Source: a phage | Reading direction: 5' to 3' (one strand) | DNA length: 64,000 nt | Sequence record: PZ445450.1 | Shown here: positions 6,662 to 27,845 of the stretch, piece after piece | Layout: each line of letters starts with the position of its first letter | How positions within the stretch are numbered: the first letter of the stretch is position 1 | The notes under the pieces: generated by a model | Database searches by the model: none | The model's input: only the letters and a program-made list of their open reading frames with translations | Told to the model about the DNA's origin: nothing | Position numbers and translations under genes: made by a program

Positions 6662-6670
6662 GGAGAAATC

Positions 6671-8416: not shown

Positions 8417-8425
8417 TATATATCT

Positions 8426-8455
8426 AACCGCTCCTGACGGGGCGGTTTTCTTATC
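8426..8455 (+). terminator. Rho-independent terminator
   Basis: Stem AACCGCTCC/GGGGCGGTT with TGAC loop, followed by TTCTTATCT. Confidence 0.55.
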
Positions 8456-8466
8456 TGGAGAACACA

Positions 8467-14105: not shown

Positions 14106-14138
14106 TAAAAAAGGGGCCAAACGGCCCCTTTCTTTTTA
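14106..14138. terminator. Bidirectional rho-independent terminator between convergent genes
   Basis: Stem AAGGGGCC/GGCCCCTT with AAAC loop, flanked by A-run upstream and T-run downstream. Confidence 0.75.
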
Positions 14139-15328: not shown

Positions 15329-15499
15329 TTACTTAAAATCTTTGTCACCTATTACGATTGCACGAATCCACTCATTGTGATGTTCAATGGCGGCAAGGCG
15401 TAACATAATGCAGTGATTGTCATTACTAAACACGGTGCGGTAAGCTTTAGCAGCACCATGATATAACTTCCACATCAGGTAATGATATCTTCGCCTCAT
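15329..15499 (-). CDS. Small hypothetical protein (56 aa, not in ORF track)
   Basis: Hand-translated minus ORF filling the gap; ATG at 15499 preceded by GGAG. Confidence 0.3.
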   Translation of the reverse strand: MRRRYHYLMWKLYHGAAKAYRTVFSNDNHCIMLRLAAIEHHNEWIRAIVIGDKDFK

Positions 15500-15504
15500 G
15501 GCTC

Positions 15505-15975
15505 TTACTCCGGTTCAGGATCTGGGTAATCTTCAATAATAAAAGGCCATCCGTTCCGCTTAGCCTCAGACTTATACTCGATCTCCTTCATTGCAAACTC
15601 TAACTGATTTTTAGCCGGAATACATGCCGGAGAATCATCAATCCAAATATCCGGGTAGATATCAAACTGCGCCAGATAGGCTGCCTTCTGAACACCTCCA
15701 GTATAAAACACACCAACATCAAGCTCCTTGCGCCAATACTCAATGTCTACATTGTCTTGAGTAATGAATCGGAAAGTCACAAGGTAGACTGTCCACCCCT
15801 CCTTCTTCAGATCCCTGATCAGGCGGGAGAAGATGAAAGGGCTCGCATTAAATGTTCCATCAAAGTCAATGGCAATGATGTGTGTGCCGTGGCGTGTCTC
15901 ATATGGATTGCTTGTGGTAAGATTGCTGTAATTAAAAGGGACTTCTTCCCCGCAGTAGCTGTAGTCCATATTCAC
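15505..15975 (-). CDS. HAD-superfamily phosphatase-like protein
   Basis: Motif I IAIDFDGT (DxDGT), motif II YLVT, Lys region KAAY, motif IV IWIDDSP. Confidence 0.55.
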   Translation of the reverse strand: MNMDYSYCGEEVPFNYSNLTTSNPYETRHGTHIIAIDFDGTFNASPFIFSRLIRDLKKEGWTVYLVTFRFITQDNVDIEYWRKELDVGVFYTGGVQKAAYLAQFDIYPDIWIDDSPACIPAKNQLEFAMKEIEYKSEAKRNGWPFIIEDYPDPEPE

Positions 15976-16247
15976 ACCTTCTCGTTGATAAATTTACGGG
16001 CGGTTTGGTGAGTTGTTTCTGCTGTCTTCAGAATAATATTAATTTTATTGTCAAGATCATTCATCTCTGCAGTTAATTCAGGAATCTCCCCGGCATGCAT
16101 AGTGAAATCATACATAGACATGCCCAGAATCTCATTGATGCGGCGGTTGCATTCTGCAGCACGCTGGTTCATTTTCCAAGCTAACACCAAAGCCTCCTGC
16201 GTAGCCTCTAGTGCAAAATCTAATACGTCGGCCTCTTCTTTCGTCAT
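15972..16247 (-). CDS. Hypothetical protein
   Basis: Start moved to internal ATG 16247 with AGGAGA RBS; the track's longer form overlaps the next gene by 236 nt. Confidence 0.45.
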   Translation of the reverse strand: MTKEEADVLDFALEATQEALVLAWKMNQRAAECNRRINEILGMSMYDFTMHAGEIPELTAEMNDLDNKINIILKTAETTHQTARKFINEKV

Positions 16248-16302
16248 CTTTCTCTCCTGTTGTATTGTTGGTAGGTGTATGAATACCTTATAACCCACCT
16301 TT

Positions 16303-16869
16303 TTATTCAAACTGCAATAGTAAGTCCACCACCGCGCTAGGTCTGTCAACAAATTCCCCAGGTCCACATGCCCACAGAGGGTATCCGTCCACATACCGCC
16401 AAATCCAACCTGCAGTGTGGAGTTCGAGCAGGGCAGTACCGTCCTTACTGTCAACCACTCTTTCCCACAGTGTTGGGCAGCGAAGCTTGAGAATCGGATC
16501 ACCTCCCTTATACCCGTCCATGTAGATACCCATTGCAAAGTTCAGCATCATCTTTTTGTGCACTGATCTCTTACTGAGGGTGCTCATCACTTCCTCTTTG
16601 TGAATGTTTGTAAGCTTCTCTTTGGCTACCCGCAGATCGTTGCAACCATTGTTCAGCAGATCTTCCAGACACTTGATCCGGAGGTCGTGAATGTCTTTGT
16701 CGTGTACCGTTGGCACAGGGTCGTAGCGGTATAGCACTGTTGATACAAGGTTGCTCGGGTGTGGGTCTGACAGCAACCCATAACCCCAATACTCTTCTGT
16801 ATCTGAAAGGACAAGACACCCAATGTCTCTGTCAAGCTTTCCTGTGTTGTAAGCCACATTGACCGCCAT
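16303..16869 (-). CDS. Hypothetical protein (188 aa)
   Basis: ORF with GGAG upstream of ATG; no confident motif. Confidence 0.45.
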   Translation of the reverse strand: MAVNVAYNTGKLDRDIGCLVLSDTEEYWGYGLLSDPHPSNLVSTVLYRYDPVPTVHDKDIHDLRIKCLEDLLNNGCNDLRVAKEKLTNIHKEEVMSTLSKRSVHKKMMLNFAMGIYMDGYKGGDPILKLRCPTLWERVVDSKDGTALLELHTAGWIWRYVDGYPLWACGPGEFVDRPSAVVDLLLQFE

Positions 16870-16871
16870 GA

Positions 16872-17117
16872 CTATAGCTCCACTAGCAAAGTGCTTTCAA
16901 AGTGCCGTTCATGCAGACCGTTGTAAGGGACCACTTCCACAACACCATCACGGACATACGGGGCCATCATAGTGGTATAATCTCCAAACGGGTTGGTATT
17001 GTCACTAACCACAACCACCTTCTGCCCTTCCTTGGCAGAGTGCCAAATAGATCTACACTTCATCAGGTGTTCGAGAGCTCCAGGTAAAATTTTGTTACGT
17101 TCTTTACGGGTCTTCAT
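16872..17117 (-). CDS. Hypothetical protein
   Basis: 81-aa ORF tightly packed in leftward operon. Confidence 0.4.
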   Translation of the reverse strand: MKTRKERNKILPGALEHLMKCRSIWHSAKEGQKVVVVSDNTNPFGDYTTMMAPYVRDGVVEVVPYNGLHERHFESTLLVEL

Positions 17118-17563
17118 AACAGATATAGCTCCTTATGAAAGTGGTCTTTTAATTTCTCACTGAGAAACTTCTTGATACCTTCCTCTAAAGTGTTTTCGAT
17201 GTAGTCCAGCTTAACTGCTTCGATGGACATATCATAGATTGCCAGCTCTAAGCTGTCAAGTCCCATCATAGCATGAACCATAAGATTTTCATCTTCAGAT
17301 ACATTCAGGGGACTTCCTATAACATCTGGAGGCAGAATAGTTTCCCAATTATTCTGGGTGGTAGTTCTCCCGCCATCTACTTTACGGCGCAGTTCGAATG
17401 TGTTCTTAGTGTAGAACACTTCATAAGAAACGATACGACTGTCACTCTCATAATAAACGAAGTTCAGGTAGGAGCCTAGCCGCAGTCGGCAAACTTCCAC
17501 CCCAAACCATTGTTTCTTATAAGAATTCAGGCTAATGCTGTCGCATTCACGTTTGCTCAACAC
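17114..17563 (-). CDS. Hypothetical protein
   Basis: 149-aa ORF, 4-nt overlap with downstream gene. Confidence 0.4.
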   Translation of the reverse strand: MLSKRECDSISLNSYKKQWFGVEVCRLRLGSYLNFVYYESDSRIVSYEVFYTKNTFELRRKVDGGRTTTQNNWETILPPDVIGSPLNVSEDENLMVHAMMGLDSLELAIYDMSIEAVKLDYIENTLEEGIKKFLSEKLKDHFHKELYLL

Positions 17564-17579
17564 GGCTATCTCCTTTTTG

Positions 17580-17813
17580 TTAATCTTCGTAAATCAGGAT
17601 TTCTGCTTTAGGTTTTCGTGCTTTCAGGTCCAGCTCTATCCAGTGCACCACAGCTGTTTCAAGAAAAACAGCTTGGATGCATCCGTCCTCAGCGTGCCCC
17701 ACCAACATAACGAGATCTTCACCTTCGTCATCTGCATCACGAACATAAAGAATCTCTCCAGATTCGAAGTCTTTCACAACCTGATTGCTAGATAATTTTC
17801 GAATTTTTGCCAT
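17580..17813 (-). CDS. Hypothetical small protein, possible distant relative of the 87-aa triplet
   Basis: 77-aa ORF adjacent to the tandem triplet. Confidence 0.4.
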   Translation of the reverse strand: MAKIRKLSSNQVVKDFESGEILYVRDADDEGEDLVMLVGHAEDGCIQAVFLETAVVHWIELDLKARKPKAEILIYED

Positions 17814-17814
17814 A

Positions 17815-18078
17815 TCAGAAACCCTCTAAAAAGCTCTTGTAGAAAACAATCTCAGTATCCACACCAGTCACAATCTTGTCGTTCCTGATTTCATCGGTAA
17901 GATAGGTGTCAAAACGCAGAACCTGTGTGGTGTTGTCACACATCCACTCAGCTGTGACCATTGCGAAAATCTTAGCATCTTCATTATCTGGTGTGAATGT
18001 TACCACCTCACCGCACTTAAACTTTTCGATAGGCTGAGTGTTAGCTTTCGGTTCTGCGATAGTGATTTTTGTGGTCAT
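17815..18078 (-). CDS. Small protein, tandem paralog 1 of 3
   Basis: Exactly 264 nt like its two neighbours; shared pattern PGTVV / CGEVV ... ILGE. Confidence 0.5.
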   Translation of the reverse strand: MTTKITIAEPKANTQPIEKFKCGEVVTFTPDNEDAKIFAMVTAEWMCDNTTQVLRFDTYLTDEIRNDKIVTGVDTEIVFYKSFLEGF

Positions 18079-18341
18079 TATTCTCCTCCTTCTTTTGAAT
18101 AGCTTGTCTCTCCAAGGATGGTAATTTTGGTGTCAAGCTCTGTAACTTTCATGTTTGGCGGCAGATCGTACAACTCATTATTTTCTAAATCGAACCCCCA
18201 CACACAATGTTCTCCTGTTTTGACAATCATAACTATGTTTTGAATGCCGTCTCCGTCGCAACTTACCACGGTCCCACACGGAAAACTGTCTGCACGCTTT
18301 TTGTTCTTCACCTTAGAATTGAATACAATGCTGGTAGCCAT
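18078..18341 (-). CDS. Small protein, tandem paralog 2 of 3
   Basis: 264-nt ORF; start/stop overlap with neighbours; conserved CGTVV..IVMIVK..ILGE. Confidence 0.5.
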   Translation of the reverse strand: MATSIVFNSKVKNKKRADSFPCGTVVSCDGDGIQNIVMIVKTGEHCVWGFDLENNELYDLPPNMKVTELDTKITILGETSYSKEGGE

Positions 18342-18604
18342 TATTGTTCCTCCACCATAACTTCGCCAAGAATTTCTATGCAGGCATCCATTTCTGTAAC
18401 AACCAAACTGTGAGGTAGTTCTACAAACACCTTTCTGAACAGATCAAATACCCCAACATATATGTTTGCAGGATGTGATTTTACAACAAGTGCTGTATTC
18501 ACATCCCCAAGTTCATCAACAAACATCACCACAGTGCCTGGAGCTACTGAGGACAGATACTTCTTAGTTTTACGGTTTGATGCAAATTTTAACTCTGTTG
18601 CCAT
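18341..18604 (-). CDS. Small protein, tandem paralog 3 of 3
   Basis: 264-nt ORF; conserved PGTVV..ALVVK..ILGE. Confidence 0.5.
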   Translation of the reverse strand: MATELKFASNRKTKKYLSSVAPGTVVMFVDELGDVNTALVVKSHPANIYVGVFDLFRKVFVELPHSLVVTEMDACIEILGEVMVEEQ

Positions 18605-18619
18605 AAATAACCTCCTCTC

Positions 18620-20080
18620 TTACTTAGCGTACTCGATTAATTCCACAGTTTTCCCAAAGCTCGGGATATAATTTTTATTATACCCTTCAGTTAGGACCCA
18701 TAGAGTATCGTACTTTTTCCACTTGTTGTCAACAGCCTTTTGTTCAAAGTTATGCTCAAAGTATAGGTCGGTCAGGACGATGACATCTTTTGCATTCGGT
18801 ATGTTGGCATCCAGATACTCGAACACGCAAGCAGCTGTTGTGCCCCATGTTGAGTGGACCTCATAGTTGATCATCTCGTCTATGTTGCCGCGAGTGTATA
18901 CTTTAACCTCTCCAACCTCAGTTGACCAACAGAACATTGTAACCTTAAACTCTTTATACAGATTGCACAATCCGGTGATTTCATTGAACATTTTCTTTAA
19001 AGTTCTTTGAGAGATCGAGCCAGAAACGTCTAAAGCTACAACAATATCTATGGTGTTTTCCGGATTACGACCAGGAACAATAACGTGCTGGTTCTTGTTT
19101 ATAGCCCCAACTTTTCGCATTGTGCTGGTCAAAGACCCAGATCGGCGACCAGGTTTTCTGTAGGTCAGTTCAGCCTTTCGTTTAGACAACATGCGTTGCT
19201 TAATGATGTCTATATAGTTGATTACAGGCTTACCCCTGTTCTTGACAAACTCACGCACCGCCTCAGGGCAACGACCTCCGGAAGCTTGCATTGCTGCTTC
19301 CAGCATGTCACCAGAGTCTTGCATGGCCTGATCTTTATCAGATTGGCTGATTACAGGTTGTGGCTGATCATACCCCATAGCCTTTCCGAGATCATCACTG
19401 GTGCCACCGTTCCCACTCATGTGATCATCGGTTTGTCGCTTATCCCCCTGAGAGTTATCACCTTTACCACTCTTACTTTTACCGTTATTCTGATCTCTTT
19501 GCTTATCAAGAACTGCATAGACGTTCTCAGCAATCCATCCATGAAACCTCATGTCGCAGTAGCAGCTGGCTAAGAAACCAAAAGGCTTACCTTTTACGAA
19601 CGTAGTGCTTTTCCCCTTCGGGAAGAAAACACAAGGAGGCTTGCTAAAGTCCACCACAAGGCCTGTGTTGATAACGTGATCACAAGCAATATTGAACAGC
19701 TCTGGCTCAAAGCTTTTACCACGGACTAGGTGATCACAGATAATATGCCCCACCTCATGTGACAGAAGAAAGGCCACCTCTTTCACAGATTTGGGGGAAT
19801 AGAAAACCTCAGCCATTTCAAACTGCTCGTCAGTCAGAGATGCTTTAAGAATTGTTTTGCGCTCATCTGCCAATCCCATAATGAATTCGGGGCTGTAGTA
19901 GATGCGTTTATGGTCGGTTGCCATGGTGGAGCACCATGTGTGGTTTTCTACGAACTGCAACCCTGACAGCAGTGTGCCGTAAAACGGCAGCTTTTCAAGG
20001 AGATACATACGTGCAGCCTGCAACATTCTCAGGGCATCATCTTTTTGTGAGGCAATGATTTCTGAACTTCTGCTATCCAT
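18620..20080 (-). CDS. vWA-domain protein with N-terminal HExxH metallopeptidase-like motif
   Basis: HEVGHIICDH zinc-peptidase motif; C-terminal MIDAS-like VVALDVSGSIS; ATG 20080 with GGAG preferred over track TTG 20101. Confidence 0.65.
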   Translation of the reverse strand: MDSRSSEIIASQKDDALRMLQAARMYLLEKLPFYGTLLSGLQFVENHTWCSTMATDHKRIYYSPEFIMGLADERKTILKASLTDEQFEMAEVFYSPKSVKEVAFLLSHEVGHIICDHLVRGKSFEPELFNIACDHVINTGLVVDFSKPPCVFFPKGKSTTFVKGKPFGFLASCYCDMRFHGWIAENVYAVLDKQRDQNNGKSKSGKGDNSQGDKRQTDDHMSGNGGTSDDLGKAMGYDQPQPVISQSDKDQAMQDSGDMLEAAMQASGGRCPEAVREFVKNRGKPVINYIDIIKQRMLSKRKAELTYRKPGRRSGSLTSTMRKVGAINKNQHVIVPGRNPENTIDIVVALDVSGSISQRTLKKMFNEITGLCNLYKEFKVTMFCWSTEVGEVKVYTRGNIDEMINYEVHSTWGTTAACVFEYLDANIPNAKDVIVLTDLYFEHNFEQKAVDNKWKKYDTLWVLTEGYNKNYIPSFGKTVELIEYAK

Positions 20081-20113
20081 TAAAACTCCAGAAGGGGCCA
20101 ATGGCCCCTGTCA

Positions 20114-21091
20114 TTATTTAACGTGTTTGAAAATACCTGCCAACTCTGTCATTGTCATGCGGGTGGTCTTCATAAGATCTGTCATAGCTTTCTCCATAAT
20201 TGGAGATACTACCATAAAGTTACCTTTGGTGAAACCTTTATTCCAGTCGGTCACTAACAGGGGCTTAAGTCCAGCTCCGAGACGTTCACCAGTTAAAGCA
20301 CAGCATTTGCGAACATACGAACTCTTAAATTGGCTGAACGACAGATCAACTTTCATACCTGCATCGTAGAACGTTTGACAATAGAAAGTGTAAGCCTTAG
20401 CAACCTCAACATCATCAGGCAGTGCAGGAACCTCTTCTGCAATCTCCTCTTCGACCTCCTGAGGCTCTTTTTCCTCTTCAGAGTTCTGTTCTCCAATTTC
20501 TTCTGTCACAGTTTCGTTTACGATGTCTGAAATGTGTTTGTTGGCTGCACGATCAGCCATGAAATTTTTAAAGTCCTGCATTGGTGACATATCTTCTTCC
20601 TCTTCGTCAAAAAGTGCTAGTTTATCTTCTTCTGTCCCATATTGCAAGATGAAGTCTTCAAAAGTATAATCACCTTTCAATTTCTCCATACGCTCTTCGC
20701 TCAGGTGAAGCATCATCTGCTGGACAATTTTTCGATCAGTTTTGTCTTTTATCAATATTGCAGTCTTTTTATCTACCAGACAGTCTTTCAGAGCGTTGCA
20801 CCTCAACCCTACCACACAACAATTGTCAATTGCGTAAGGACCTTCATCATCTATCCGCTCCAGAGATGGGTAGAAAGGATTCCCCAGCCCGTTTTCATCT
20901 GTGTGCATGTCGAAAGGTATAAGGGTATAGTCGCATACCCCCTCTCCTAAAAGTTTTTTACCAAATAGGAGGTATTCTTCCCATGACAGGTTGAACTCTA
21001 TATCTCGTTTCCGTGCATTATTTTGTTTGCGTCTGTATTTTTTGAGCAGGCGCTCTAACTCTTCTGGTGTATAATATTTTTCAAGATTCAT
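20114..21091 (-). CDS. Nuclease-like protein with acidic linker (tentative)
   Basis: ERIDDEGPYAIDNCCVV..CNALK resembles HNH/AP2-type nuclease spacing but lacks the canonical His; central EEEEDM..EEEKEPQEVEEE; start set at ATG 21091. Confidence 0.35.
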   Translation of the reverse strand: MNLEKYYTPEELERLLKKYRRKQNNARKRDIEFNLSWEEYLLFGKKLLGEGVCDYTLIPFDMHTDENGLGNPFYPSLERIDDEGPYAIDNCCVVGLRCNALKDCLVDKKTAILIKDKTDRKIVQQMMLHLSEERMEKLKGDYTFEDFILQYGTEEDKLALFDEEEEDMSPMQDFKNFMADRAANKHISDIVNETVTEEIGEQNSEEEKEPQEVEEEIAEEVPALPDDVEVAKAYTFYCQTFYDAGMKVDLSFSQFKSSYVRKCCALTGERLGAGLKPLLVTDWNKGFTKGNFMVVSPIMEKAMTDLMKTTRMTMTELAGIFKHVK

Positions 21092-21164
21092 GAGTTGTCT
21101 CTCGTGCTCTGTAGGTGAAGAAATCTTATCAAGTGCCTCGACAGATGTCAACCTCAAAAACGTG

Positions 21165-21193
21165 TTGACTTTACTATAAATCTACGATATAGT
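21165..21193 (+). promoter_or_regulatory. Sigma70-like promoter
   Basis: TTGACT-N17-TATAGT in the divergent intergenic region upstream of the rightward block. Confidence 0.6.
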
Positions 21194-21233
21194 GCACCCA
21201 TTCGAAAGAAAACGAACACAGGAGCACTTAATC

Positions 21234-22133
21234 ATGGCAAATCTTAACAGCTTTAGCACTCGGTGGAAACAAGATATCACAACCAATCTCTCAGCAGGTG
21301 ATATCCTTTCTGCAATTTACGAGGCTTTGGATGATAAAGCTACTTCAAGATCGGTTTGTACTAACCCGCTAATTCCTATAGTGATGAAGGTAATTGAGCG
21401 GAGGTTGGTATCCGGGTCTGATAAGTGGACATATTTAGATAATGGAGGGCATACTTACTCCAACGGATATGTTGATATAAAAGTGGAATACGCAGTATCA
21501 TACCGCCGGAGCGGTTCTGTAACTTTCAACTTCTCTGGAGGTTTTCGATCTCTGGCTACTTCACCTTTTGTTTCCTCAGAGGAGAAGTATGAGCTGCCAT
21601 TTCTTTGGATGATGGCTAACGCGACAGGAAAAACCCCCGTTAGCATCCGAGTAAAATACAACTACAACGGATCTAGTAAGATCTATGCCGAAAGTGCCTC
21701 AGCAAGTTTTTATTTTGTGATGGGGGATGGAATCCTCAAACATATAAAGATGTGCGATATGCATGATGTTATAAATGAAGTGACTGATAAGAATGTTCTA
21801 GTGAAAGACCTCAACAATTTTTATACACCCGGAGACTATTACGTCAGCCGTCCACTGTGCATCTTTAATGCCGCACACCCTCTAGGTGAGTATTTGATCG
21901 CCAATAGCGATATTGCCAATAACCGCTTCGAGGTAGCAAGAGTTCAGAATGAGGTATTGACATCTTGCAAGAGCGGTGATAAGTTTACCGAAGAAGAGAT
22001 GGGTGTTTTAGAAATGATGGGATATAAGTGTAGCCTTTGGGTAGATGAGGTGTTTAATGATTGCATCTATGGACAGGATATTTACCCATTAAAGAAGTAT
22101 ACTGATACAAGTTTAATTTATGCGAGGGTTTGA
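21234..22133 (+). CDS. Hypothetical protein (299 aa)
   Basis: ATG 21234 after CAGGAG; first gene of the rightward module. Confidence 0.5.
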   Translation: MANLNSFSTRWKQDITTNLSAGDILSAIYEALDDKATSRSVCTNPLIPIVMKVIERRLVSGSDKWTYLDNGGHTYSNGYVDIKVEYAVSYRRSGSVTFNFSGGFRSLATSPFVSSEEKYELPFLWMMANATGKTPVSIRVKYNYNGSSKIYAESASASFYFVMGDGILKHIKMCDMHDVINEVTDKNVLVKDLNNFYTPGDYYVSRPLCIFNAAHPLGEYLIANSDIANNRFEVARVQNEVLTSCKSGDKFTEEEMGVLEMMGYKCSLWVDEVFNDCIYGQDIYPLKKYTDTSLIYARV

Positions 22134-22408
22134 CTATGATGAAGGCATGTGGTAATGTATATTACGTCGGTGAACATGTTCAGGCAGACAGTGTGTGGAA
22201 ATCTATTAAGTCCACCACTGACGATGCCTTTCTGAGCGGGTTATGCTTTCCCAGCCCAGGGGACACTCTCCCTTACCCTGGAGATTTTGTTGTCAACAAG
22301 ATGGACGGTTATACCGTGTGCCTGATGGTTGAAAAAATCTTTTTAGACACTAGACGCAATCACCGTTTTGTGTTAAAATTTCAAGAATGTAAAATGACAA
22401 TTGCCTAA
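22130..22408 (+). CDS. Hypothetical protein
   Basis: 92-aa ORF overlapping upstream stop. Confidence 0.4.
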   Translation: MTMMKACGNVYYVGEHVQADSVWKSIKSTTDDAFLSGLCFPSPGDTLPYPGDFVVNKMDGYTVCLMVEKIFLDTRRNHRFVLKFQECKMTIA

Positions 22409-22421
22409 GGAGACCTTGCCG

Positions 22422-22778
22422 ATGTCTAAAGTTACTTATCGTGCAGCTATTTACTGCAATGAACACCCAATCAATAATGATGGTCACTGCCTTTTTAAAG
22501 AAAATCAGTTGGGATGTATTGTCCTCCCTGATGAAGGGAAAGGTTATCTGATTGCATTGACAGGGTTTGAACCTGAAGCTCTGGAAGCCAATCTGGACTA
22601 CCTGGTAGAAGAGGGTGCTGCAGACCTGGTTGCCAATGGCCTCTCCATAAGCCTTGACGAAGTGGAGCGCTTCATGGGCAATTACCGTGTAGTGCGTGAG
22701 TTTACTATCGAGGTGGAAACTCCAGAGTGGGGTAGCCATGAAACTAATGCCGAAGAAAAAGAAGAGGAGGTAGAATAA
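22422..22778 (+). CDS. Hypothetical protein with acidic C-terminus
   Basis: ATG 22422 after TAAGGAGA; ends EEKEEEVE. Confidence 0.45.
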   Translation: MSKVTYRAAIYCNEHPINNDGHCLFKENQLGCIVLPDEGKGYLIALTGFEPEALEANLDYLVEEGAADLVANGLSISLDEVERFMGNYRVVREFTIEVETPEWGSHETNAEEKEEEVE

Positions 22779-23035
22779 TGAAAGTGCAGATCTTGACTAA
22801 TGCCGAGAAGATGTTTATTGAAGATACACCTTTTGAAGCTGGTGAGCTACAGTTCATTTATTTTGTTGACTTAGATAAGGTGTTCCCTGCACTGAATCTT
22901 GGTCTGGATGAAGTTCCTCATAAGGTTTTGTGCCAAGTTGTTCGTGCATTAGCGGCAGATGGGGAGTTCCACACCCTTGAAGATGTCCAGACCTACGGGT
23001 ATCTTGAACTACAACGAGAAGAAGAGGTGGACTGA
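22778..23035 (+). CDS. Hypothetical protein
   Basis: 85-aa ORF, start overlaps upstream stop. Confidence 0.4.
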   Translation: MKVQILTNAEKMFIEDTPFEAGELQFIYFVDLDKVFPALNLGLDEVPHKVLCQVVRALAADGEFHTLEDVQTYGYLELQREEEVD

Positions 23036-23037
23036 TA

Positions 23038-23418
23038 ATGGCCCGGTGGAAGACAACAGTTGACCTTCATGATCAGTGGTTAGGACGCATCACTGAAGAC
23101 GGGAAGCTAGTGGAGTGGGACAATAAGCATGTTAGCGAGTTGGCAAGTATTGTGGCTGGCAAGTTACGCTCCAAGTTCCCTGAACAACTGGATCCTGATA
23201 GTTCAAAGTTCGATCCTGAGTTGGAGGATGTTGTATACTACTTCGACACCGTTGATGACTACGACGCGTGGTTTGCAGCACGGGAGCTTTACCCACAAGG
23301 CTCTGCTATGCGTCAGATGGAAGAAGATTATCCTCCGTGTGAGCAATTCAATAGTGCAATGACTTGCCTCTATGATTGGGCAGATAAGAACCTTGTCTGG
23401 ATTCGGACTGCATTTTAG
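23038..23418 (+). CDS. Hypothetical protein
   Basis: 126-aa ORF in tight co-directional array. Confidence 0.4.
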   Translation: MARWKTTVDLHDQWLGRITEDGKLVEWDNKHVSELASIVAGKLRSKFPEQLDPDSSKFDPELEDVVYYFDTVDDYDAWFAARELYPQGSAMRQMEEDYPPCEQFNSAMTCLYDWADKNLVWIRTAF

Positions 23419-23462
23419 TGGGCAGGAATGGCGGCAAGGATGCTGCTTAAGGAGTAGTAGAG

Positions 23463-23732
23463 ATGTTATACCAGCAATATGAACTTCGTGCAGAAAAAGA
23501 GTTAAATTTTGACAAAGATATTCACAGATATTATTATGGGAAAGTTAGAGGGCAAGCAAGAAAGTGTACTCCAACACTCTTTTATGCCAGCAGACGACTA
23601 GCGCCAGAAGAGGCAACAGCAGAAAGGGTTGCGTACAACTGGAGAGTCACGTATGATATTGATAGATCCGATGTAATATCTGTTTTGGAAAACTTTGAAA
23701 ACACTTACACACAAGTAGAGGACTTTTACTAA
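23463..23732 (+). CDS. Hypothetical protein
   Basis: 89-aa ORF; stop overlaps start of the AAA ATPase gene. Confidence 0.4.
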   Translation: MLYQQYELRAEKELNFDKDIHRYYYGKVRGQARKCTPTLFYASRRLAPEEATAERVAYNWRVTYDIDRSDVISVLENFENTYTQVEDFY

Positions 23733-24916
23733 TGTCAAGAAACGTATTCGAAAGTGGTCAAATCACTGTCCGTGAGTTGCCAGCTATTATTCAGTTTGCC
23801 CAACGTCATAGCCGATCTGTCCTAATTTTGGGACCAATGGGTGTAGGTAAAAGCCAGGTGATGAAGCAGATCGCTGATAATATGTTCGGTGAGCGAGATG
23901 ACAACCTTGTTGACGTGCGACTGTCAGATAAAGATCCTGCCGACTTATCTGGGCTACCTATCCCTGTAGAAGCGGATGGAACTACACGTACAGTGTTTGC
24001 AATTCCAGAATTTTGGCCTGCGGATCCTGACTGGAGCGGAATTATCTTTCTGGATGAGCTCACTCATGCAGATAACTACCTGCAAAAGGTTGCAATGCAA
24101 ATTATGCTTGACCACAAGTGCGGTACTTATGCATTCCCTAAGGGGTCTGTTTTTGTGGCTGCTGGTAACCGTTCTACAGATGGTGCGGTTCTTTCGGCGC
24201 TCGAAGCCCCTCTGGCTAACCGTTTTATCATTGTAGAGGTTACAAGCAATGCAGAGGTGTTTATTGAGGACTACGCATTCCTTAATGGGGTGCACTCCTC
24301 TGTAATTGGATATCTGAAAAGAGTTCCATCAGCTATCGATAATTATGAGGCCATGGCTGAGATTAATTGTCCATCTTTTGCCACACCGCGATCTTGGGTT
24401 GCTGCATCTGATATCTTGCACGATTTTGACAGCGGTATTATTTCTGACGCTATGGCCCGTGTTCTTCTGCAAGGTGCTATTGGTCACACTGCAGCGGTAG
24501 AGATCTGGACTTACCACACCAAGAAACGCAACTTACCGGAAATCGGTCGGATTATGGCAGGAGGTTGCAAAGAATACGTAGGTCCTAAACAGCCAGACAT
24601 CTTGTGGATTCTTGGATCTGAAGGTTGCATCGCTATTCGTAATATGATGGAAAATGCAAGTATCTCCGACGAAGATCTTGTTAGCTGTGTGGCAAACTTT
24701 CTCGATTTCCTTTGGGAAAACTTCAAGGACGAGAACCGAGATTTTGTATTTTCAGTCTTTATGGCGATGATGAAACCTAATGCCTTAGGAAATGCCTTGC
24801 TTATCGGTAAAGGTCGTGACAAGATCGTTGCTCAGCTGATCAAAGCATACCCAAACCTGATGAAGATTGTAAAAGAGTTTGGTGAAGAGTTTAGCGCCAT
24901 TTTGGCTAAAGCTTAA
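23732..24916 (+). CDS. AAA+ ATPase (MoxR/CbbQ-like)
   Basis: Walker A GPMGVGKS, Walker B IIFLDEL; about 390 aa typical of MoxR-type ATPases that pair with vWA proteins. Confidence 0.7.
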   Translation: MSRNVFESGQITVRELPAIIQFAQRHSRSVLILGPMGVGKSQVMKQIADNMFGERDDNLVDVRLSDKDPADLSGLPIPVEADGTTRTVFAIPEFWPADPDWSGIIFLDELTHADNYLQKVAMQIMLDHKCGTYAFPKGSVFVAAGNRSTDGAVLSALEAPLANRFIIVEVTSNAEVFIEDYAFLNGVHSSVIGYLKRVPSAIDNYEAMAEINCPSFATPRSWVAASDILHDFDSGIISDAMARVLLQGAIGHTAAVEIWTYHTKKRNLPEIGRIMAGGCKEYVGPKQPDILWILGSEGCIAIRNMMENASISDEDLVSCVANFLDFLWENFKDENRDFVFSVFMAMMKPNALGNALLIGKGRDKIVAQLIKAYPNLMKIVKEFGEEFSAILAKA

Positions 24917-24925
24917 GGAGGTTGT

Positions 24926-25306
24926 ATGGCTAAAGTAGGTAAGCGGGGAAACTACCTGGTGGTATTGACCGAGGAGCCGGAGAAGGAGTACGAATGCAGC
25001 TCCACTTGCGTGATCGATATCCGAGAAAAAGATGTAGATGAAATCTGGTTTAAAATATTGGACGCTTGCGACAGCAGTGATTATTTCTTCATCTATGTCA
25101 ACGATAAGGCTGGGTTCTTCCATGACGACGGAGAGTTGCCGTATGAAATCTATGAACTTGTAGAGGCTTGCCATCGTGGAGATGCGGAGTTGTTTGGCTT
25201 ACGGCTGAAAAGCGGTAAATTCTTCTATCAAGATGAGTGCATGAATCTTCATAACTTTGTAGAGGGAACTTGCAACGATGGAGAGATTTTGGCACACTAC
25301 GATTAA
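24926..25306 (+). CDS. Hypothetical protein
   Basis: 126-aa ORF with AGGAGG RBS. Confidence 0.45.
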   Translation: MAKVGKRGNYLVVLTEEPEKEYECSSTCVIDIREKDVDEIWFKILDACDSSDYFFIYVNDKAGFFHDDGELPYEIYELVEACHRGDAELFGLRLKSGKFFYQDECMNLHNFVEGTCNDGEILAHYD

Positions 25307-25355: not shown

Positions 25356-25856
25356 GTGAAAATTAAGATCTTTGCTATTATTTTGAGCGCATTTTTATCG
25401 CTGCCTGTTGTTGCAGCACCAAAACAAAAAGTATACCATACTTGCAAGCCATCAGATACTAAGGAAAACATTCTAGCATGCAATATCTACAGGGAAGCTA
25501 GAGGGGATGGCACGATGGGTATGCTGGCATCTGGGTTTGCCACCCTAAACAGGAAATCTCACCCCAAATACCCGGACACCATAAGAAAGATTGTCTACCA
25601 ACCTAACCAGTTTTCGTGGACAAACCACGGCAAAACTTTTAAGGTGACAGAAAAAGATTCATGGGATCACGCTAAAAGTCTTGCAAAGATGCTTCTAAAG
25701 GTCTATAATAACAACCATGTTGCATACATGGCTATGGACATAACAGGTGGAGCAACACACTACCATACAACCAAAGTACGACCGAAATGGGCAAAAAAGA
25801 TGCAGAGGACAGCTCAATTCGGGAGTCATATCTACTACAAGGAGCGCAATAAATGA
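25356..25856 (+). CDS. Secreted cell-wall hydrolase (SleB/Hydrolase_2-like)
   Basis: N-terminal signal peptide MKIKIFAIILSAFLSLPVVAAP; CNIYREARGDG and VYQPNQFSW fit the Hydrolase_2 signature. Confidence 0.6.
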   Translation: MKIKIFAIILSAFLSLPVVAAPKQKVYHTCKPSDTKENILACNIYREARGDGTMGMLASGFATLNRKSHPKYPDTIRKIVYQPNQFSWTNHGKTFKVTEKDSWDHAKSLAKMLLKVYNNNHVAYMAMDITGGATHYHTTKVRPKWAKKMQRTAQFGSHIYYKERNK

Positions 25857-27835
25857 TTGTAAACAGTAATGAAACTAAAGCAGTACTAACCGGAAATATG
25901 GAGGTCACCAGGGGCTCAATTTCTCTGAACAAAGAGACTTTTGGGCTAATCATTAAAGGGATTTACGAAGATAAGGTGCTGGCAAGCTGCCGTGAACCAA
26001 TCTTCAATGCTGTGGACTCCCATGTTGAGTCTGGACGGGGTGATGTACCGATCATCATTCACTCCCCTACAGACCTTGAACCATACTTCTTTGTGCAGGA
26101 CGTTGGATTGGGCATGTCAGAAGAGATGGTCCGCAACACTTTCATGAACCTCGGTGAGTCAACCAAGCGCAACAGCAACGCTCTGGTTGGCAATAAAGGT
26201 GTTGGTTCAAAGGCTCCGTTCAGCATGGTGGACACTTTCGATGTTATCAGTGTGCACAATGGTATTGAAAGCACATATCTATTGTTCTTGGATCAGGGTA
26301 TCCCAAACGTTACCAAGATCCGCGAGCGGAAGACTGAAGAGCACAACGGGGTAAAAGTTCAGTTCCATGTTAAGAAAGAGCATGTCCTGAAATATCGCAC
26401 TGCTATTGCATCGTGCTTACGCTATGCGAAGTTTCCGTTCATCGTCACCGATCCCATGACCAGTAAGATGTTAGAAGGTGACAAGGTTGAGGCACAGTAT
26501 CATTACGAGAAGGATGGCTGGAAAATGACCATCCTGAAAGGTTATACCAGTTCTGATGAGAGCCGTGTTGTGATGGGTAACCAACCTTACCGCTCCAAGT
26601 TCCTGGAGACATTGACCGATTACCCTGCAATCTGCGTGGAAATTCCTATTGGGGATTGCAATATTAACCCTGGGCGTGAATGGACCATAGAGGGCCATGA
26701 CGACGGTGGATTCCAGGATCGCCTGGAGGCATTTGTCAAAGAAGGTATACGTCTTCGCGGGGCAGAAGTTGTTGCAGAACTGGAGACGGCAAAAACCTCC
26801 GCAGAAGCACGTGAAATGATGAAGAATAGTGGAGTGTTCGGACACATCTTCGGCAAGAACTTTATGTGGAACCGTTGGGAAGAAACAGGGCTTGGCGACT
26901 TAGGCGATTGTGAAATTTTCGCTGGAGGCTTAAATAAAGGCCGCATAGGCTATGCTTGTTACGGAAAGTCGGAGTTCTTACGAGGTGTATACCTTGTATT
27001 TAACGACGGAGACGGCAAATATAACCGGAATAAGTGTAACTACTTAAGCGAGATCACCGGACGCAACGTTTTCTATTGCCGGAACACGGATCTGGTGAAA
27101 GAGTTTAAAGAGGCGGCACACCATCCGTTCTTTGCAGATACGGTCAAATTGTTATCGGAGCTTCCACGCCGACCTGCGAAGAAAGGTGAAACCAAAACTC
27201 GTTACGAGCCAGGCTACTGGGTTAAGAAGCTTAGAGAGGATGGCTACTTCCATCGTGAGCGCCTCACGAAGGCAGAGTTCAAGAAGATTAAGCATTGCAT
27301 TCCTTATGAGGGGGATATCCAACGGGGAAGCTGCTGGCTGGGCCAGATGAGTAACATCTACCAGCAAAATTATGACCGTGTGCGTGCTGCACTCCAGATT
27401 CCTGAAGGTGAAGATCTGTACCTGGTATCAGAATCTCGTCTGCTTTGGACTGATCCTGATTGCCAGTATGTTACAGAGAAGAATGTGGAACATTTGTTGA
27501 AAGAGGATGCTTGGAAATTCTTACTGACTCGCGCAGCAAATGAAACTTCATATGACAGCCTGTATAGACAATTAGGGAAAATTATCCCCATGCAGGATTT
27601 TGGAAATTATCGGCCACATTTCCACAAGTGGGAAGGTAACACCGCGTGGAAGCACAGTGAGCTAAATCATCGTGCCAAAATCTTAATCGCCAACCGGGTT
27701 AAGTGCGGGAAGGCCTATATTGCAAGATTGGAAAAGAAATATCCACTTTTGAAGCATGTGGGCTTGAAATATTGGGACACTCCTGCTATGATTGAATACC
27801 GTGAACTGATCGATACAAAGAATAACATCAAATAA
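25853..27835 (+). CDS. rIIA: rIIA-like protein (GHKL ATPase fold)
   Basis: Bergerat-fold boxes DVGLGMSEE and GNKGVGSKAPFS; 660 aa; immediately upstream of an rIIB homolog. Confidence 0.7.
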   Translation: MIVNSNETKAVLTGNMEVTRGSISLNKETFGLIIKGIYEDKVLASCREPIFNAVDSHVESGRGDVPIIIHSPTDLEPYFFVQDVGLGMSEEMVRNTFMNLGESTKRNSNALVGNKGVGSKAPFSMVDTFDVISVHNGIESTYLLFLDQGIPNVTKIRERKTEEHNGVKVQFHVKKEHVLKYRTAIASCLRYAKFPFIVTDPMTSKMLEGDKVEAQYHYEKDGWKMTILKGYTSSDESRVVMGNQPYRSKFLETLTDYPAICVEIPIGDCNINPGREWTIEGHDDGGFQDRLEAFVKEGIRLRGAEVVAELETAKTSAEAREMMKNSGVFGHIFGKNFMWNRWEETGLGDLGDCEIFAGGLNKGRIGYACYGKSEFLRGVYLVFNDGDGKYNRNKCNYLSEITGRNVFYCRNTDLVKEFKEAAHHPFFADTVKLLSELPRRPAKKGETKTRYEPGYWVKKLREDGYFHRERLTKAEFKKIKHCIPYEGDIQRGSCWLGQMSNIYQQNYDRVRAALQIPEGEDLYLVSESRLLWTDPDCQYVTEKNVEHLLKEDAWKFLLTRAANETSYDSLYRQLGKIIPMQDFGNYRPHFHKWEGNTAWKHSELNHRAKILIANRVKCGKAYIARLEKKYPLLKHVGLKYWDTPAMIEYRELIDTKNNIK

Positions 27836-27845
27836 GGAGACCAAG

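What the first reader, a model, noticed from the sequence alone, without database searches (positions are those of the whole stretch)
18620..20080. vWA protein with HExxH metallopeptidase motif, partnered at a distance by a MoxR-like AAA ATPase
HEVGHIICDH plus a C-terminal DVSGS MIDAS-like motif matches the architecture that usually pairs with MoxR ATPases; the matching ATPase (23732-24916; Walker A GPMGVGKS) is 3.6 kb away on the opposite strand. Such pairs act as chaperone-like remodelling systems; their role in phage infection is poorly defined.
Basis: partly seen in the sequence, partly recalled or inferred. Interest (0 to 1): 0.55.

Follow-up and report, generated by a model that had tools for sequence, protein, structure and literature searches.

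The report
Split MoxR–vWA-peptidase pair in rV5-like phage
This rV5-like E. coli phage carries a zinc-peptidase/vWA adaptor gene and its MoxR-type ATPase partner, a gene pair already recognised in N4-like and jumbo phages; here it is unusually split onto opposite strands, and what the pair acts on is still unknown.

Summary
ORF 18620-20080(-), 486 aa, is a DUF2201_N zinc-peptidase domain (HEVGH) fused to a vWA domain with a complete MIDAS site (DVSGS...T...D). ORF 23732-24916(+) is an AAA+ ATPase with all catalytic motifs. Pfam AAA models score below threshold on it, but its predicted fold, best structural matches (CbbQ, NorQ, dynein, midasin) and homologues place it in the MoxR/helix-2-insert clade.

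The partnership is real. In 68 of 70 viral loci chosen by the ATPase, 68 of 78 chosen by the vWA gene, and 64 of 80 bacterial loci, the ATPase lies directly upstream of the vWA-peptidase gene. The pair corresponds to N4 gp24/gp25, two of the 14 core genes of N4-like phages, and to the jumbo-phage MoxR–vWA-peptidase pair described in 2021. Only rV5-, GAP31- and BIS47-like phages have it split and divergent.

Both genes sit in units that start at back-to-back sigma-70-like promoters. Neither is marked as a virion protein in the rV5 gene table. The most likely reading is an ATP-driven remodelling and cleavage module acting on a cytoplasmic client early or mid infection. The client is unknown.

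This is a new member of a known kind, and of modest interest.

The parts
18620..20080 (-). CDS of the vWA-peptidase protein (486 aa; rV5 genes 12+13, bas50_0056)
   Evidence: ORF. ATG with a GGAG ribosome-binding site. Pfam DUF2201_N plus DUF2201. phrog_1314 E=1e-122. AlphaFold model mean pLDDT 77.8.
19106..20080 (-). N-terminal helical zincin-like domain (about aa 1-325), with a low-confidence Gly/Ser/Asp-rich linker at aa 200-227
   Evidence: PF13203 E=7e-28. pLDDT above 90 over most of aa 1-190 and below 50 at aa 200-227. Only a weak motif-level match to Peptidase_M48.
19745..19759 (-). HEVGH zinc-binding and catalytic motif (H108 E109 H112)
   Evidence: Translation. H108 and H112 are kept in 172 of 175 homologues and E109 in 162 of 175.
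19667..19693 (-). NIACDHVIN segment (N130, A132, D134, N138), a candidate third metal ligand and active-site wall
   Evidence: Translation. D134 is kept in 173 of 175 and N138 in 174 of 175. Its role as a ligand is inferred, not shown.
18638..19045 (-). C-terminal vWA domain
19016..19030 (-). MIDAS DxSxS motif (DVSGS, D351 S353 S355). The remaining MIDAS residues are T414 (18839-18841) and D438 (18767-18769)
   Evidence: Translation. D351, S353 and S355 are kept in 175 of 175, T414 in 170 of 175 and D438 in 174 of 175.
23732..24916 (+). CDS of the MoxR-class AAA+ ATPase (394 aa; rV5 gene 4, bas50_0064)
23831..23854 (+). Walker A motif GPMGVGKS
   Evidence: Translation. G37, G39, K40 and S41 are invariant in alignment A2.
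24047..24058 (+). Walker B motif FLDE. Further catalytic residues: sensor 1 N146 (24167-24169), arginine finger R164 (24221-24223), sensor 2 R220 (24389-24391)
   Evidence: Translation. D108, E109, N146, R147, R164 and R220 are invariant in A2. The assignment of roles follows the standard AAA+ motif order and is an inference.
23954..24001 (+). Predicted beta-hairpin (aa 75-90) at the helix-2 position, the hallmark insert of the MoxR/midasin/dynein clade
   Evidence: Strands 75-81 and 84-90 follow helix 69-73 in the model. The clade definition is taken from PMC7159879.
21093..21234 (.). Intergenic region with back-to-back sigma-70-like promoters that head the two divergent units holding the vWA gene (leftward, second gene) and the ATPase gene (rightward, seventh gene)
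   Evidence: Minus strand TTGACA-17-TAAGAT with a TG extension, at 21151..21123. Plus strand TTGACT-17-TATAGT at 21165..21193. [quoted passage not shown]
20093..20109 (-). GC-rich hairpin (AGGGGCC-AUU-GGCCCCU) between the stop codon of the Srd-like gene and the ribosome-binding site of the vWA gene
   Evidence: RNA fold -15.2 kcal/mol, z = -2.25 against shuffles. Function not tested.

Best explanation
The two genes encode the two halves of one ATP-driven protein-remodelling and cleavage module.

The 394-aa protein is a catalytically competent MoxR-class AAA+ ATPase that, by analogy with NorQ and CbbQ, forms a hexameric ring. The 486-aa protein is its adaptor. Its C-terminal vWA domain docks on the ring and uses its MIDAS metal site to grip a carboxylate on a client protein. 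Its N-terminal HExxH zinc-peptidase domain cuts the client, or a partner of it, once ATP hydrolysis has exposed the site.

In this phage the ancestral ATPase-then-vWA operon has been broken, apparently by an inversion. Both genes still sit in units that start at the same pair of back-to-back sigma-70-like promoters. They should therefore be made together early in infection and act in the cytoplasm, not in the virion.

What is shown: the domain identities, intact catalytic and MIDAS residues, and near-obligate gene linkage across phages and bacteria.

What is inferred: hexamer formation and docking, proteolysis, early timing, and a cytoplasmic client. The client's identity is unknown.
For: Domains:
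- Pfam DUF2201_N and DUF2201 above cut-off.
- ATPase fold closest to CbbQ and NorQ, then dynein and midasin; profile match to midasin, E=7e-11.
- Predicted helix-2 hairpin.

Catalytic integrity:
- Walker A and B, sensor 1, arginine finger and sensor 2 are invariant in 31 homologues.
- MIDAS is intact in 170 of 175 diverse homologues and HExxH in 161 of 175.

Linkage:
- The ATPase is directly upstream of the vWA gene in 68 of 70 IMG/VR loci that have room downstream.
- In the reverse test, 68 of 78 loci chosen by the vWA gene have the ATPase directly upstream, and 77 of 78 have it within 8 kb.
- 64 of 80 bacterial loci have the adjacent arrangement.
- The pair is adjacent in N4 (gp24/gp25), CR8, 121Q, Atu_ph07 and Aeromonas phage 4L372D.
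- Host-genus counts for the two proteins run in parallel across 50,697 phage records: 724 and 820 records.

Mechanistic precedent: NorD's vWA domain plugs the pore of the NorQ hexamer, and surface carboxylates on the client are required. The authors propose this binding mode for MoxR/vWA couples in general (PMC9976466).

Timing and location:
- Back-to-back sigma-70-like promoters.
- N4 gp24/gp25 are middle genes.
- rV5 genes 4 and 12 are not marked with virion mass-spectrometry evidence in the rV5 gene table.
- The pair's neighbours in many lineages are replication and nucleotide-metabolism genes.
Against: - No experiment on any member of this phage family turned up in ten literature searches.
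- No Pfam AAA model reaches its gathering score on the window ATPase itself.
- The peptidase domain has no convincing match to a solved zincin, only a motif-level M48 hit at E=0.008 to 0.57. Both fold searches were dominated by the vWA domain.
- The catalytic Glu is replaced in about 6% of homologues, so cleavage is not universal in the family.
- The promoters are consensus matches only.
- In PA5oct the ATPase homologue carries an 'ESI-MS/MS' note, meaning it was detected in particle preparations.
- In 121Q the pair is flanked by structural genes.
- The inversion is inferred from gene order in three genomes only.
Confidence: 0.7

Rival explanations
1. Virion-assembly chaperone and protease. 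The pair folds or assembles structural proteins and trims them proteolytically, as proposed for the jumbo-phage version by analogy with the p618/p892 MoxR-vWA pair of Acidianus two-tailed virus.
For: - Proposed by Iyer et al. 2021 (PMC7824862).
- The PA5oct ATPase homologue is flagged ESI-MS/MS.
- The 121Q pair lies between structural genes.
Against: - In this window both genes are in units headed by sigma-70-like promoters, outside the rV5 genes treated as late (27-66).
- rV5 genes 4 and 12 lack the virion MS mark in the rV5 gene table.
- N4 gp24/gp25 are middle genes.
- The pair occurs in podoviruses (N4-like) and in several groups of myoviruses whose tail modules differ. In most lineages it sits among replication and nucleotide-metabolism genes.
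- The PA5oct study itself counted 7 'virion-unrelated enzymes' among its MS hits.
Confidence: 0.15
2. Metallo-cofactor insertion or enzyme reactivation. Like NorQ/NorD, CbbQ/CbbO or the chelatases, the pair opens up a specific enzyme, for example one of nucleotide metabolism, to load or release a metal or an inhibitor. The HExxH site would then serve metal handling rather than proteolysis.
For: - The closest solved ATPase structures are CbbQ and NorQ, and NorD is among the vWA hits.
- Thymidylate synthase, dCTP or dCMP deaminase, or glutaredoxin recur as neighbours in N4, 121Q, 4L372D, Atu_ph07 and environmental phages.
- The metal-binding His residues are kept more strictly (172 of 175) than the catalytic Glu (162 of 175).
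Against: - The catalytic Glu is still kept in 93% of homologues, which points to hydrolysis.
- No single enzyme gene is a constant neighbour. No conserved third gene was found in phage loci by BLAST, and genes inserted between the pair are unrelated to each other.
- Clustering of nucleotide-metabolism genes may simply reflect the general early/middle module.
Confidence: 0.1
3. The two genes no longer work together in rV5-like phages. Once separated, each acts alone or with a host partner such as E. coli RavA/ViaA-type proteins.
For: In the window the genes are 3.6 kb apart on opposite strands, in different transcription units.
Against: - Both are retained intact, with all catalytic and MIDAS residues, across the split clade. 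Identity to the window proteins falls to about 45-53% there (GAP31-, BIS47- and Ro1-like phages).
- Both units start at the same divergent promoter region.
- In every other lineage the pair is linked.
Confidence: 0.04

Closest known systems
Bacteriophage N4 gp24 (AAA ATPase) and gp25 (vWFA protein), core genes of N4-like phages (Schitoviridae)
   Same: Both are homologous to the window proteins. Family profiles built from the window proteins hit N4 gp24 at E=3e-57 and gp25 at E=2e-55, and tblastn with the vWA protein hits gp25 at E=4e-13. The ATPase plus peptidase-vWA architecture is the same. The function is listed as unknown, and the genes are middle genes. rIIA/rIIB lie a few kb downstream of the ATPase in both genomes.
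   Different: In N4 the genes are adjacent and co-oriented, with a 132-nt gap between the stop-to-stop reading frames. Here they are 3.6 kb apart and divergent. Identity is only about 21-27%. N4 transcribes them with its own RNA polymerase II, whereas rV5-like phages appear to use host sigma-70 promoters.
MoxR AAA+ and vWA chaperone/co-chaperone pair with an N-terminal metallopeptidase on the vWA protein, reported for 'group 2.2' jumbo phages (Iyer et al. 2021, Viruses 13:63)
   Same: The architecture is identical. Jumbo-phage pairs are clear homologues: Atu_ph07 gp264/gp263 (E=1e-81 and 6e-76) and 121Q 563/564 (E=4e-80 and 8e-97).
   Different: That report covers jumbo phages only and proposes a virion-assembly role. 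This phage has a 137-kb genome, the pair is split, and its setting argues for early or middle cytoplasmic action. I did not check which phage the accession numbers in the paper belong to.
NorQ/NorD and CbbQ/CbbO (bacterial MoxR-vWA remodelling pairs)
   Different: NorD and CbbO have no peptidase domain. Their clients (nitric oxide reductase, Rubisco) are known and are encoded nearby. Sequence identity is below 20%.
Chromosomal three-gene operon X - MoxR - DUF2201 of Campylobacterota (Sulfurimonas, Sulfuricurvum, Aliarcobacter)
   Same: These include the closest cellular relatives of the ATPase, mostly 32-38% identical; the rV5 authors found the same best hit in Sulfuricurvum kujiense. The adjacent gene has the same DUF2201_N plus DUF2201 architecture.
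   Different: The setting is cellular: a Na+/H+ antiporter and GGDEF proteins flank it in S. indica. A conserved gene of about 420-450 aa lies directly upstream in 33 of 79 loci and has no counterpart in the phage loci. There the ATPase passes the Pfam AAA_3 and AAA_5 cut-offs.
Midasin/Rea1
   Same: Best sequence-profile match of the ATPase among solved structures (E=7e-11). Its MIDAS domain is among the vWA structural matches. The logic is the same: an AAA ring plus a MIDAS domain that grips and removes a client.
   Different: Midasin is a single eukaryotic polypeptide of about 5,000 residues with six fused AAA modules and no peptidase.
Acidianus two-tailed virus p618 (MoxR) and p892 (vWA)
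   Same: According to Iyer et al. 2021, a viral MoxR-vWA pair previously reported as required for a virion process, tail assembly.
   Different: It is an archaeal virus, the vWA protein has no peptidase domain, and the system acts in tail assembly. Homology to the window proteins was not tested here.

Membership tests
MoxR / helix-2-insert clade of AAA+ ATPases (MoxR, CbbQ/NorQ, midasin, dynein, chelatases) | Complete AAA+ catalytic set: Walker A, Walker B, sensor 1, arginine finger, sensor 2 | tested here: met
   GPMGVGKS, FLDE, N146, R164 and R220 are present and invariant across 31 homologues.
MoxR / helix-2-insert clade of AAA+ ATPases (MoxR, CbbQ/NorQ, midasin, dynein, chelatases) | Curated family models (Pfam AAA_3 PF07726, AAA_5 PF07728) above the gathering score | tested here: not met
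   AAA_5 scores 16.7 bits against a cut-off of 22, and AAA_3 gives no hit on the window protein. Homologues at 31-38% identity do carry these hits, and the Sulfurimonas indica homologue passes both cut-offs (AAA_3 31.3 against 27; AAA_5 25.5 against 22).
MoxR / helix-2-insert clade of AAA+ ATPases (MoxR, CbbQ/NorQ, midasin, dynein, chelatases) | Beta-hairpin insert in helix 2 of the AAA+ core (definition from PMC7159879) | tested here: met
   The AlphaFold model has strands 75-81 and 84-90 after helix 69-73, before the Walker B strand 102-108. This rests on a predicted structure only.
MoxR / helix-2-insert clade of AAA+ ATPases (MoxR, CbbQ/NorQ, midasin, dynein, chelatases) | Closest structures are members of the clade | tested here: met
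MoxR / helix-2-insert clade of AAA+ ATPases (MoxR, CbbQ/NorQ, midasin, dynein, chelatases) | Genomic association with a vWA-domain partner | tested here: met
   (see linkage counts).
MoxR / helix-2-insert clade of AAA+ ATPases (MoxR, CbbQ/NorQ, midasin, dynein, chelatases) | Hexameric ring with ATPase activity | not testable with these tools
   Needs purified protein, or at least a multimer prediction, which was not available.
vWA domain with a functional MIDAS site | Rossmann-like vWA fold | tested here: met
vWA domain with a functional MIDAS site | DxSxS ... T ... D metal-coordinating residues | tested here: met
   D351, S353, S355, T414 and D438 are present. All five are kept in 170 of 175 homologues.
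DUF2201_N putative zinc metallopeptidase (Pfam PF13203) | Family model above the gathering score | tested here: met
   E=7e-28, 98.3 bits against a cut-off of 23.2.
DUF2201_N putative zinc metallopeptidase (Pfam PF13203) | HExxH with conserved further ligand candidates | tested here: met
   HEVGH plus H117 and D134. Conservation 92-99%.
DUF2201_N putative zinc metallopeptidase (Pfam PF13203) | Zincin fold shared with a solved peptidase | tested here: inconclusive
   Only motif-level hits to Peptidase_M48, E=0.008 and 0.57. Both whole-model fold searches returned vWA matches only.
DUF2201_N putative zinc metallopeptidase (Pfam PF13203) | Peptidase activity | not testable with these tools
   I found no biochemical report for any member.
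Phage ATPase / vWA-peptidase pair (N4 gp24/gp25; jumbo-phage pair of Iyer et al. 2021) | Both proteins homologous to the reference pair | tested here: met
   N4 E=3e-57 and 2e-55; Atu_ph07 E=1e-81 and 6e-76; 121Q E=4e-80 and 8e-97.
Phage ATPase / vWA-peptidase pair (N4 gp24/gp25; jumbo-phage pair of Iyer et al. 2021) | ATPase gene directly upstream of the vWA gene on the same strand | tested here: not met
   In the window the genes are 3.6 kb apart and divergent. The same split is seen in L008 and L009 and in GAP31. This is an arrangement variant, not a loss of either component.
Cobaltochelatase-like CobS/CobT pair (the other AAA+/vWA pair I recall as common in phages; recalled from memory, considered and set aside) | Hits to CobS/CobT family models | tested here: not met
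   No CobS or CobT model appears among the Pfam, NCBIfam or PHROG hits of either protein. From memory, CobT-type proteins have no HExxH domain.
Known anti-phage defence or anti-defence families (PADLOC models) | Significant hit to a defence-system model | tested here: not met
   The vWA protein has no hit. The ATPase has only P-loop-level hits at E above 0.002.

The most novel reading that the evidence does not exclude
The pair is a phage-encoded, ATP-dependent targeting protease. Early in infection it recognises, through its MIDAS site, and cuts a specific host protein, such as a defence, stress-response or nucleoid/replication factor. That would make it a widespread and so far unrecognised host-takeover or counter-defence device shared by all N4-like phages, rV5-like phages and many jumbo phages. 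The conserved third gene of the Campylobacterota operon would then point to the natural class of client.
Probability: 0.25. Interest if true: 0.7.

Novelty: new member of a known kind. Interest (0 to 1): 0.3.

Why it matters
The family is large. A profile of the vWA-peptidase finds 28,663 clusters at 50% identity. It is also one of only 14 genes shared by all N4-like phages. Yet no function has been shown for any member.

This analysis links four things that have been annotated separately and often wrongly (the vWA-peptidase is frequently labelled 'HNH endonuclease'):
- the rV5 clade,
- N4 gp24/gp25,
- the jumbo-phage pair,
- a bacterial chromosomal operon.

That gives a single target for experiments, and tractable systems already exist in E. 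coli K-12: N4 and the BASEL Vequintavirus phages. The split arrangement in rV5-like phages is convenient because each gene can be deleted without polar effects on the other.

In itself the finding is ordinary. Both genes were already annotated with these domains, and the architecture is in the literature.

Tried and rejected
- **Sequence search of solved structures with the single proteins.** Nothing for the vWA protein, and only P-loop matches to ClpB/ClpC for the ATPase. Profiles were needed.
- **PADLOC and NCBIfam.** No informative hits.
- **Locus search with the full vWA alignment A1.** It worked with the ATPase alignment and with a second vWA alignment, A3.
- **A conserved third gene in phages.** BLAST of all neighbouring window ORFs against the other loci found none. 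Genes inserted between the pair in other phages are unrelated to one another.
- **Literature.** 'DUF2201' gave only incidental mentions. Nothing was found for rV5 plus MoxR, for anti-defence links, for N4-like plus von Willebrand, or for genome-wide phage fitness screens covering this family. The O177 Vequintavirus paper had nothing on these genes. PA5oct supplementary tables are not held.
- **CobS/CobT-type chelatase.** Rejected because no such models hit either protein.
- **'HNH endonuclease' label (PHROG 1314 and many RefSeq records).** Rejected because no HNH domain is detectable.
Full report
**Origin of the window.** The region 18000-25000 is 97.5% identical over its full length to Vequintavirus genomes. 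121 phage records match it and 114 of them cover at least 80% of the query. In Escherichia phage DrSchubert the two genes are annotated 'putative metallopeptidase' (bas50_0056) and 'ATPase, MoxR ATPase' (bas50_0064). In the original rV5 paper they are gene 12, 'CHP, PF13203 DUF2201_N' (with gene 13 as a frameshifted tail), and gene 4, 'MoxR - ATPase'. The components were therefore already annotated. I found no statement that the two form a pair in this clade.

**The observation.** The mechanical ORF is 18620..20101(-). The ATG at 20080 is the likely start. It has a GGAG 8 nt upstream, whereas the TTG at 20101 sits in the loop of a GC-rich hairpin. Taken alone they would be weak, since HExxH occurs 7 times and DxSxS 31 times in the six-frame translation of the window. 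Pfam, however, gives DUF2201_N at E=7e-28 and DUF2201 (VWA-like) at E=4e-11, both above the curated cut-offs.

**The vWA-peptidase protein.** An AlphaFold model built on 22 homologues has mean pLDDT 77.8. It shows four parts:
- a confident helical N-terminal domain (aa 1-190, mostly pLDDT above 90);
- a disordered Gly/Ser/Asp-rich linker (aa 200-227);
- further helices;
- a C-terminal alpha/beta domain (aa 344-480).

I aligned 175 diverse homologues, most of them representatives of 50%-identity clusters, to the family profile:
- All five MIDAS residues are intact in 170.
- HExxH is intact in 161.
- The two zinc-binding His residues are each kept in 172.
- The catalytic Glu is kept in 162.

Binding through the MIDAS site is thus the most strictly conserved property, and catalysis has been lost in a minority. 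The peptidase fold could not be tied to a solved zincin. Only motif-level hits to family M48 were obtained.

**The ATPase.** No Pfam AAA model reaches its threshold on this protein; AAA_5 scores 16.7 bits against a cut-off of 22. The other evidence outweighs this:
- Of 8,000 candidates scored, 5,711 were homologues, and many proteins of about 360 aa at 31-38% identity (E about 1e-44) carry AAA_3, AAA_5 or bpMoxR hits.
- A Sulfurimonas indica homologue passes both the AAA_3 and AAA_5 cut-offs.
- The family profile's best match among solved structures is midasin, E=7e-11, with the next family at 4e-5.
- The AlphaFold model (pLDDT 83.3) has a beta-hairpin (aa 75-90) at the helix-2 position that defines the MoxR/midasin/dynein clade.
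- Walker A, Walker B, sensor 1, the arginine finger and sensor 2 are invariant in 31 homologues.

I file it as a divergent member of the MoxR-class clade, closest to the CbbQ/NorQ type.

**Are the two genes partners?** This was the least secure part of the interpretation, because the genes are 3.6 kb apart on opposite strands. Four results bear on it.

*tblastn against 50,697 phage records.* The vWA-peptidase is found in 724 records and the ATPase in 820. Host-genus counts run in parallel: Escherichia 214 and 215, Pseudomonas 104 and 108, Klebsiella 61 and 68, Cronobacter 17 and 17, Achromobacter 17 and 17.

*80 IMG/VR loci fetched with the ATPase alignment.*
- 68 have the vWA-peptidase gene directly downstream on the same strand (spacing between reading frames -58 to 548 nt).
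- 9 end within about 110 nt of the ATPase gene, and one more has only about 1 kb downstream, so none of these 10 has room for a full partner gene.
- Only 2, both rV5-type, show the split divergent arrangement.

*78 new IMG/VR loci fetched with a vWA alignment (the reverse test).*
- 68 have the ATPase directly upstream.
- 9 have it 0.8-5.7 kb upstream on the same strand.
- 1 lacks it within 7.8 kb.

*80 loci from bacterial genome assemblies, mostly Campylobacterota.*
- 64 have the adjacent arrangement.
- 9 more have the two genes within 5.5 kb.

The pair is also adjacent in named phages: N4 (gp24/gp25), Certrevirus CR8 (gp116/gp117), 121Q (563/564), Atu_ph07 (gp264/gp263), Aeromonas phage 4L372D (078/077), and a 578-kb metagenomic contig. 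It is separated but co-oriented in PA5oct, where a homing endonuclease lies in between, and in Bacillus phage G. Linkage is thus close to obligate in both directions, and the arrangement in the window is a derived exception.

*How the split may have arisen.* In a Certrevirus-like contig (L010) the helicase and the SleB-like hydrolase lie on the strand opposite to ATPase-then-vWA. In the window the ATPase is collinear with the hydrolase, rIIA, rIIB and the helicase, and the vWA gene is on the other strand. This fits one inversion with a breakpoint between the two genes. It is an inference from gene order only.

**What is already known.**
[quoted passage not shown] Their function is listed as unknown, and they are described as middle genes.
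- Iyer et al. [quoted passage not shown] By analogy with Acidianus two-tailed virus they proposed a role in virion assembly with peptidolytic processing.
- For MoxR/vWA pairs in general, work on NorQ/NorD shows a hexameric ring with the vWA domain plugging the pore, and a requirement for an intact vWA domain and for surface carboxylates on the client.

I found no experimental work on any DUF2201-type pair, phage or bacterial.

**Timing and place of action.**
- The intergenic region 21093-21234 carries back-to-back sigma-70-like promoters: minus strand TTGACA-17-TAAGAT with a TG extension, plus strand TTGACT-17-TATAGT. [quoted passage not shown]
- The leftward unit runs Srd-like gene, vWA-peptidase, then small ORFs, down to a bidirectional terminator at 14107-14134. 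Beyond the terminator the tail-fibre (late) genes begin.
- The rightward unit runs through six genes (one of 299 aa, then five small ORFs) to the ATPase, and then a hydrolase, rIIA, rIIB, a helicase and methyltransferases.
- Neither rV5 gene 4 nor gene 12 is marked with virion mass-spectrometry evidence in the rV5 gene table.
- In other lineages the neighbours are mostly replication and nucleotide-metabolism genes: 5'-3' exonuclease and thymidylate synthase, dCTP deaminase, DNA polymerase, glutaredoxin and RNA ligase, dCMP deaminase. In one huge-phage contig the neighbours are HSP20, ClpS and ClpP.

Counter-indications exist. The PA5oct ATPase homologue carries an 'ESI-MS/MS' note, although that study lists 7 'virion-unrelated enzymes' among its 93 detections. 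The 121Q pair lies between structural genes. The pair also occurs in podoviruses and in several kinds of myoviruses. On balance I favour early or middle cytoplasmic action over a virion-assembly role.

**Mechanism proposed.** The ATPase forms a ring. The vWA domain docks on it and holds a client through the MIDAS metal. ATP hydrolysis remodels the client, and the tethered HExxH domain cleaves it. I estimate:
- about 0.85 that the two proteins form such a MoxR/vWA machine;
- about 0.6 that proteolysis is part of its action in this phage;
- no more than 0.25-0.3 for any particular class of client.

The rivals are virion assembly (0.15), metal-centre or enzyme reactivation in the manner of NorQD or CbbQO (0.1), and functional uncoupling of the two genes (0.04).

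**Cellular relatives.** The ATPase's closest cellular relatives are largely in Campylobacterota, mostly 32-38% identical, which matches the best hit reported in 2013. In Sulfurimonas indica the pair sits among ordinary chromosomal genes (Na+/H+ antiporter, GGDEF proteins), not in a prophage. A conserved gene of about 420-450 aa lies directly upstream of the ATPase in 33 of 79 such loci. It may be a client or a regulator. Nothing comparable is conserved next to the phage pairs.

**Verdict.** The thing itself is a member, with a derived split arrangement, of a known and very large family of phage and bacterial MoxR/vWA-peptidase pairs. A vWA profile finds 28,663 clusters at 50% identity. The family's biological role remains open. 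Interest is modest, at 0.3. A specialist would not be surprised, but the family's size, its core status in N4-like phages and the available E. coli K-12 systems make the open question approachable.

Noticed in passing
window 17815-18604 (-), perhaps also 17580-17813: Three head-to-tail ORFs of exactly 264 nt (87 aa each) lie directly downstream of the vWA-peptidase gene in the same unit. Two of them (18078-18341 and 18341-18604) are 39% identical paralogues. No homologues were found in the other loci held, and their function is unknown.
   Followed up: partly
many phage records: The vWA-peptidase family is widely mislabelled. PHROG 1314 and RefSeq records for CR8, Atu_ph07, phage G, 4L372D, K64-1 and others call it 'HNH endonuclease'. 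Other labels include 'putative anti-sigma factor', 'tail protein', 'metallo-phosphohydrolase' and 'Zn-dependent hydrolase (T4-gp25-like)'. Pfam finds no HNH domain, only DUF2201_N plus DUF2201.
   Followed up: yes
window 20093-20109: A perfect 7-bp GC-rich hairpin lies between the stop codon of the Srd-like gene and the ribosome-binding site of the vWA-peptidase gene (RNA fold -15.2 kcal/mol, z = -2.25). It could be an attenuator, a processing site or a stabiliser. Its conservation was not checked.
   Followed up: partly
window 14107-14134: A terminator-like hairpin readable on both strands (12 pairs) marks the boundary between the leftward small-gene unit and the tail-fibre genes. It matches the bidirectional terminator that the rV5 paper places between genes 26 and 27.
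   Followed up: partly
window 23509-23537 (+): A near-consensus sigma-70-like promoter (TTGACA-17-TATTAT, 11 of 12 positions) lies inside the 89-aa ORF 23463-23732, about 195 nt upstream of the ATPase start. A weak terminator-like hairpin precedes it at 23395-23408. The ATPase may have its own promoter.
   Followed up: no
phage records (e.g. MG065661 'Campylobacter phage C9'): Sixteen records named 'Campylobacter phage', 15 of them with host Campylobacter jejuni, match this E. coli phage region at megablast level; one of them (C9) encodes an ATPase 99.5% identical to the window's. The host label looks doubtful.
   Followed up: no
DQ832317 (type phage rV5) 7756-9217: In the type rV5 record the vWA-peptidase ORF is broken into gene 12 (441 aa) and gene 13 (81 aa), and tblastn needs two pieces there. 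It is intact in the window and in the other Vequintavirus records listed for that search. This is either a sequencing frameshift or a real lesion in that isolate.
   Followed up: partly
L169 6685-7947 (Sulfurimonas indica), and 33 of 79 bacterial loci: A conserved gene of about 420-450 aa lies directly upstream of the MoxR-like ATPase in Campylobacterota, forming a three-gene operon with the DUF2201 gene. Its only Pfam signal is a weak, sub-threshold DUF2336 hit. It is a candidate client or regulator. At least four loci (L113, L124, L127, L164) appear to hold a second copy of the ATPase gene within 16 kb.
   Followed up: partly
L187 5286-9254: In a 480-kb viral contig one ATPase gene is followed by two tandem vWA-peptidase paralogues (6600-7892 and 7980-9254).
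   Followed up: no
L006 / L007 (578-kb metagenomic contig): Here the pair is embedded among protein-quality-control genes: HSP20 and ClpS upstream, ClpP downstream. The ATPase carries an insertion of roughly 130 residues between the helix-2 region and Walker B.
   Followed up: partly
L090 (PA5oct 234078-239264): The PA5oct pair is interrupted by three small ORFs and a putative homing endonuclease. The ATPase homologue carries an 'ESI-MS/MS' note and the vWA homologue does not.
   Followed up: partly
window 25853-29000, and N4 15460-20075: rIIA and rIIB follow the ATPase within 1-4 kb in both rV5-like phages and N4. I did not test whether this is more than shared early/middle gene order.
   Followed up: no
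window 20114-21092 (-): The first gene of the leftward unit, upstream of the vWA gene, is the Srd-like 'anti-sigma factor' (rV5 gp11). It hits PHROGs labelled HNH endonuclease, 'decoy of host sigma70', endonuclease VII and Srd, has no Pfam hit, and has a very acidic central stretch.
   Followed up: no
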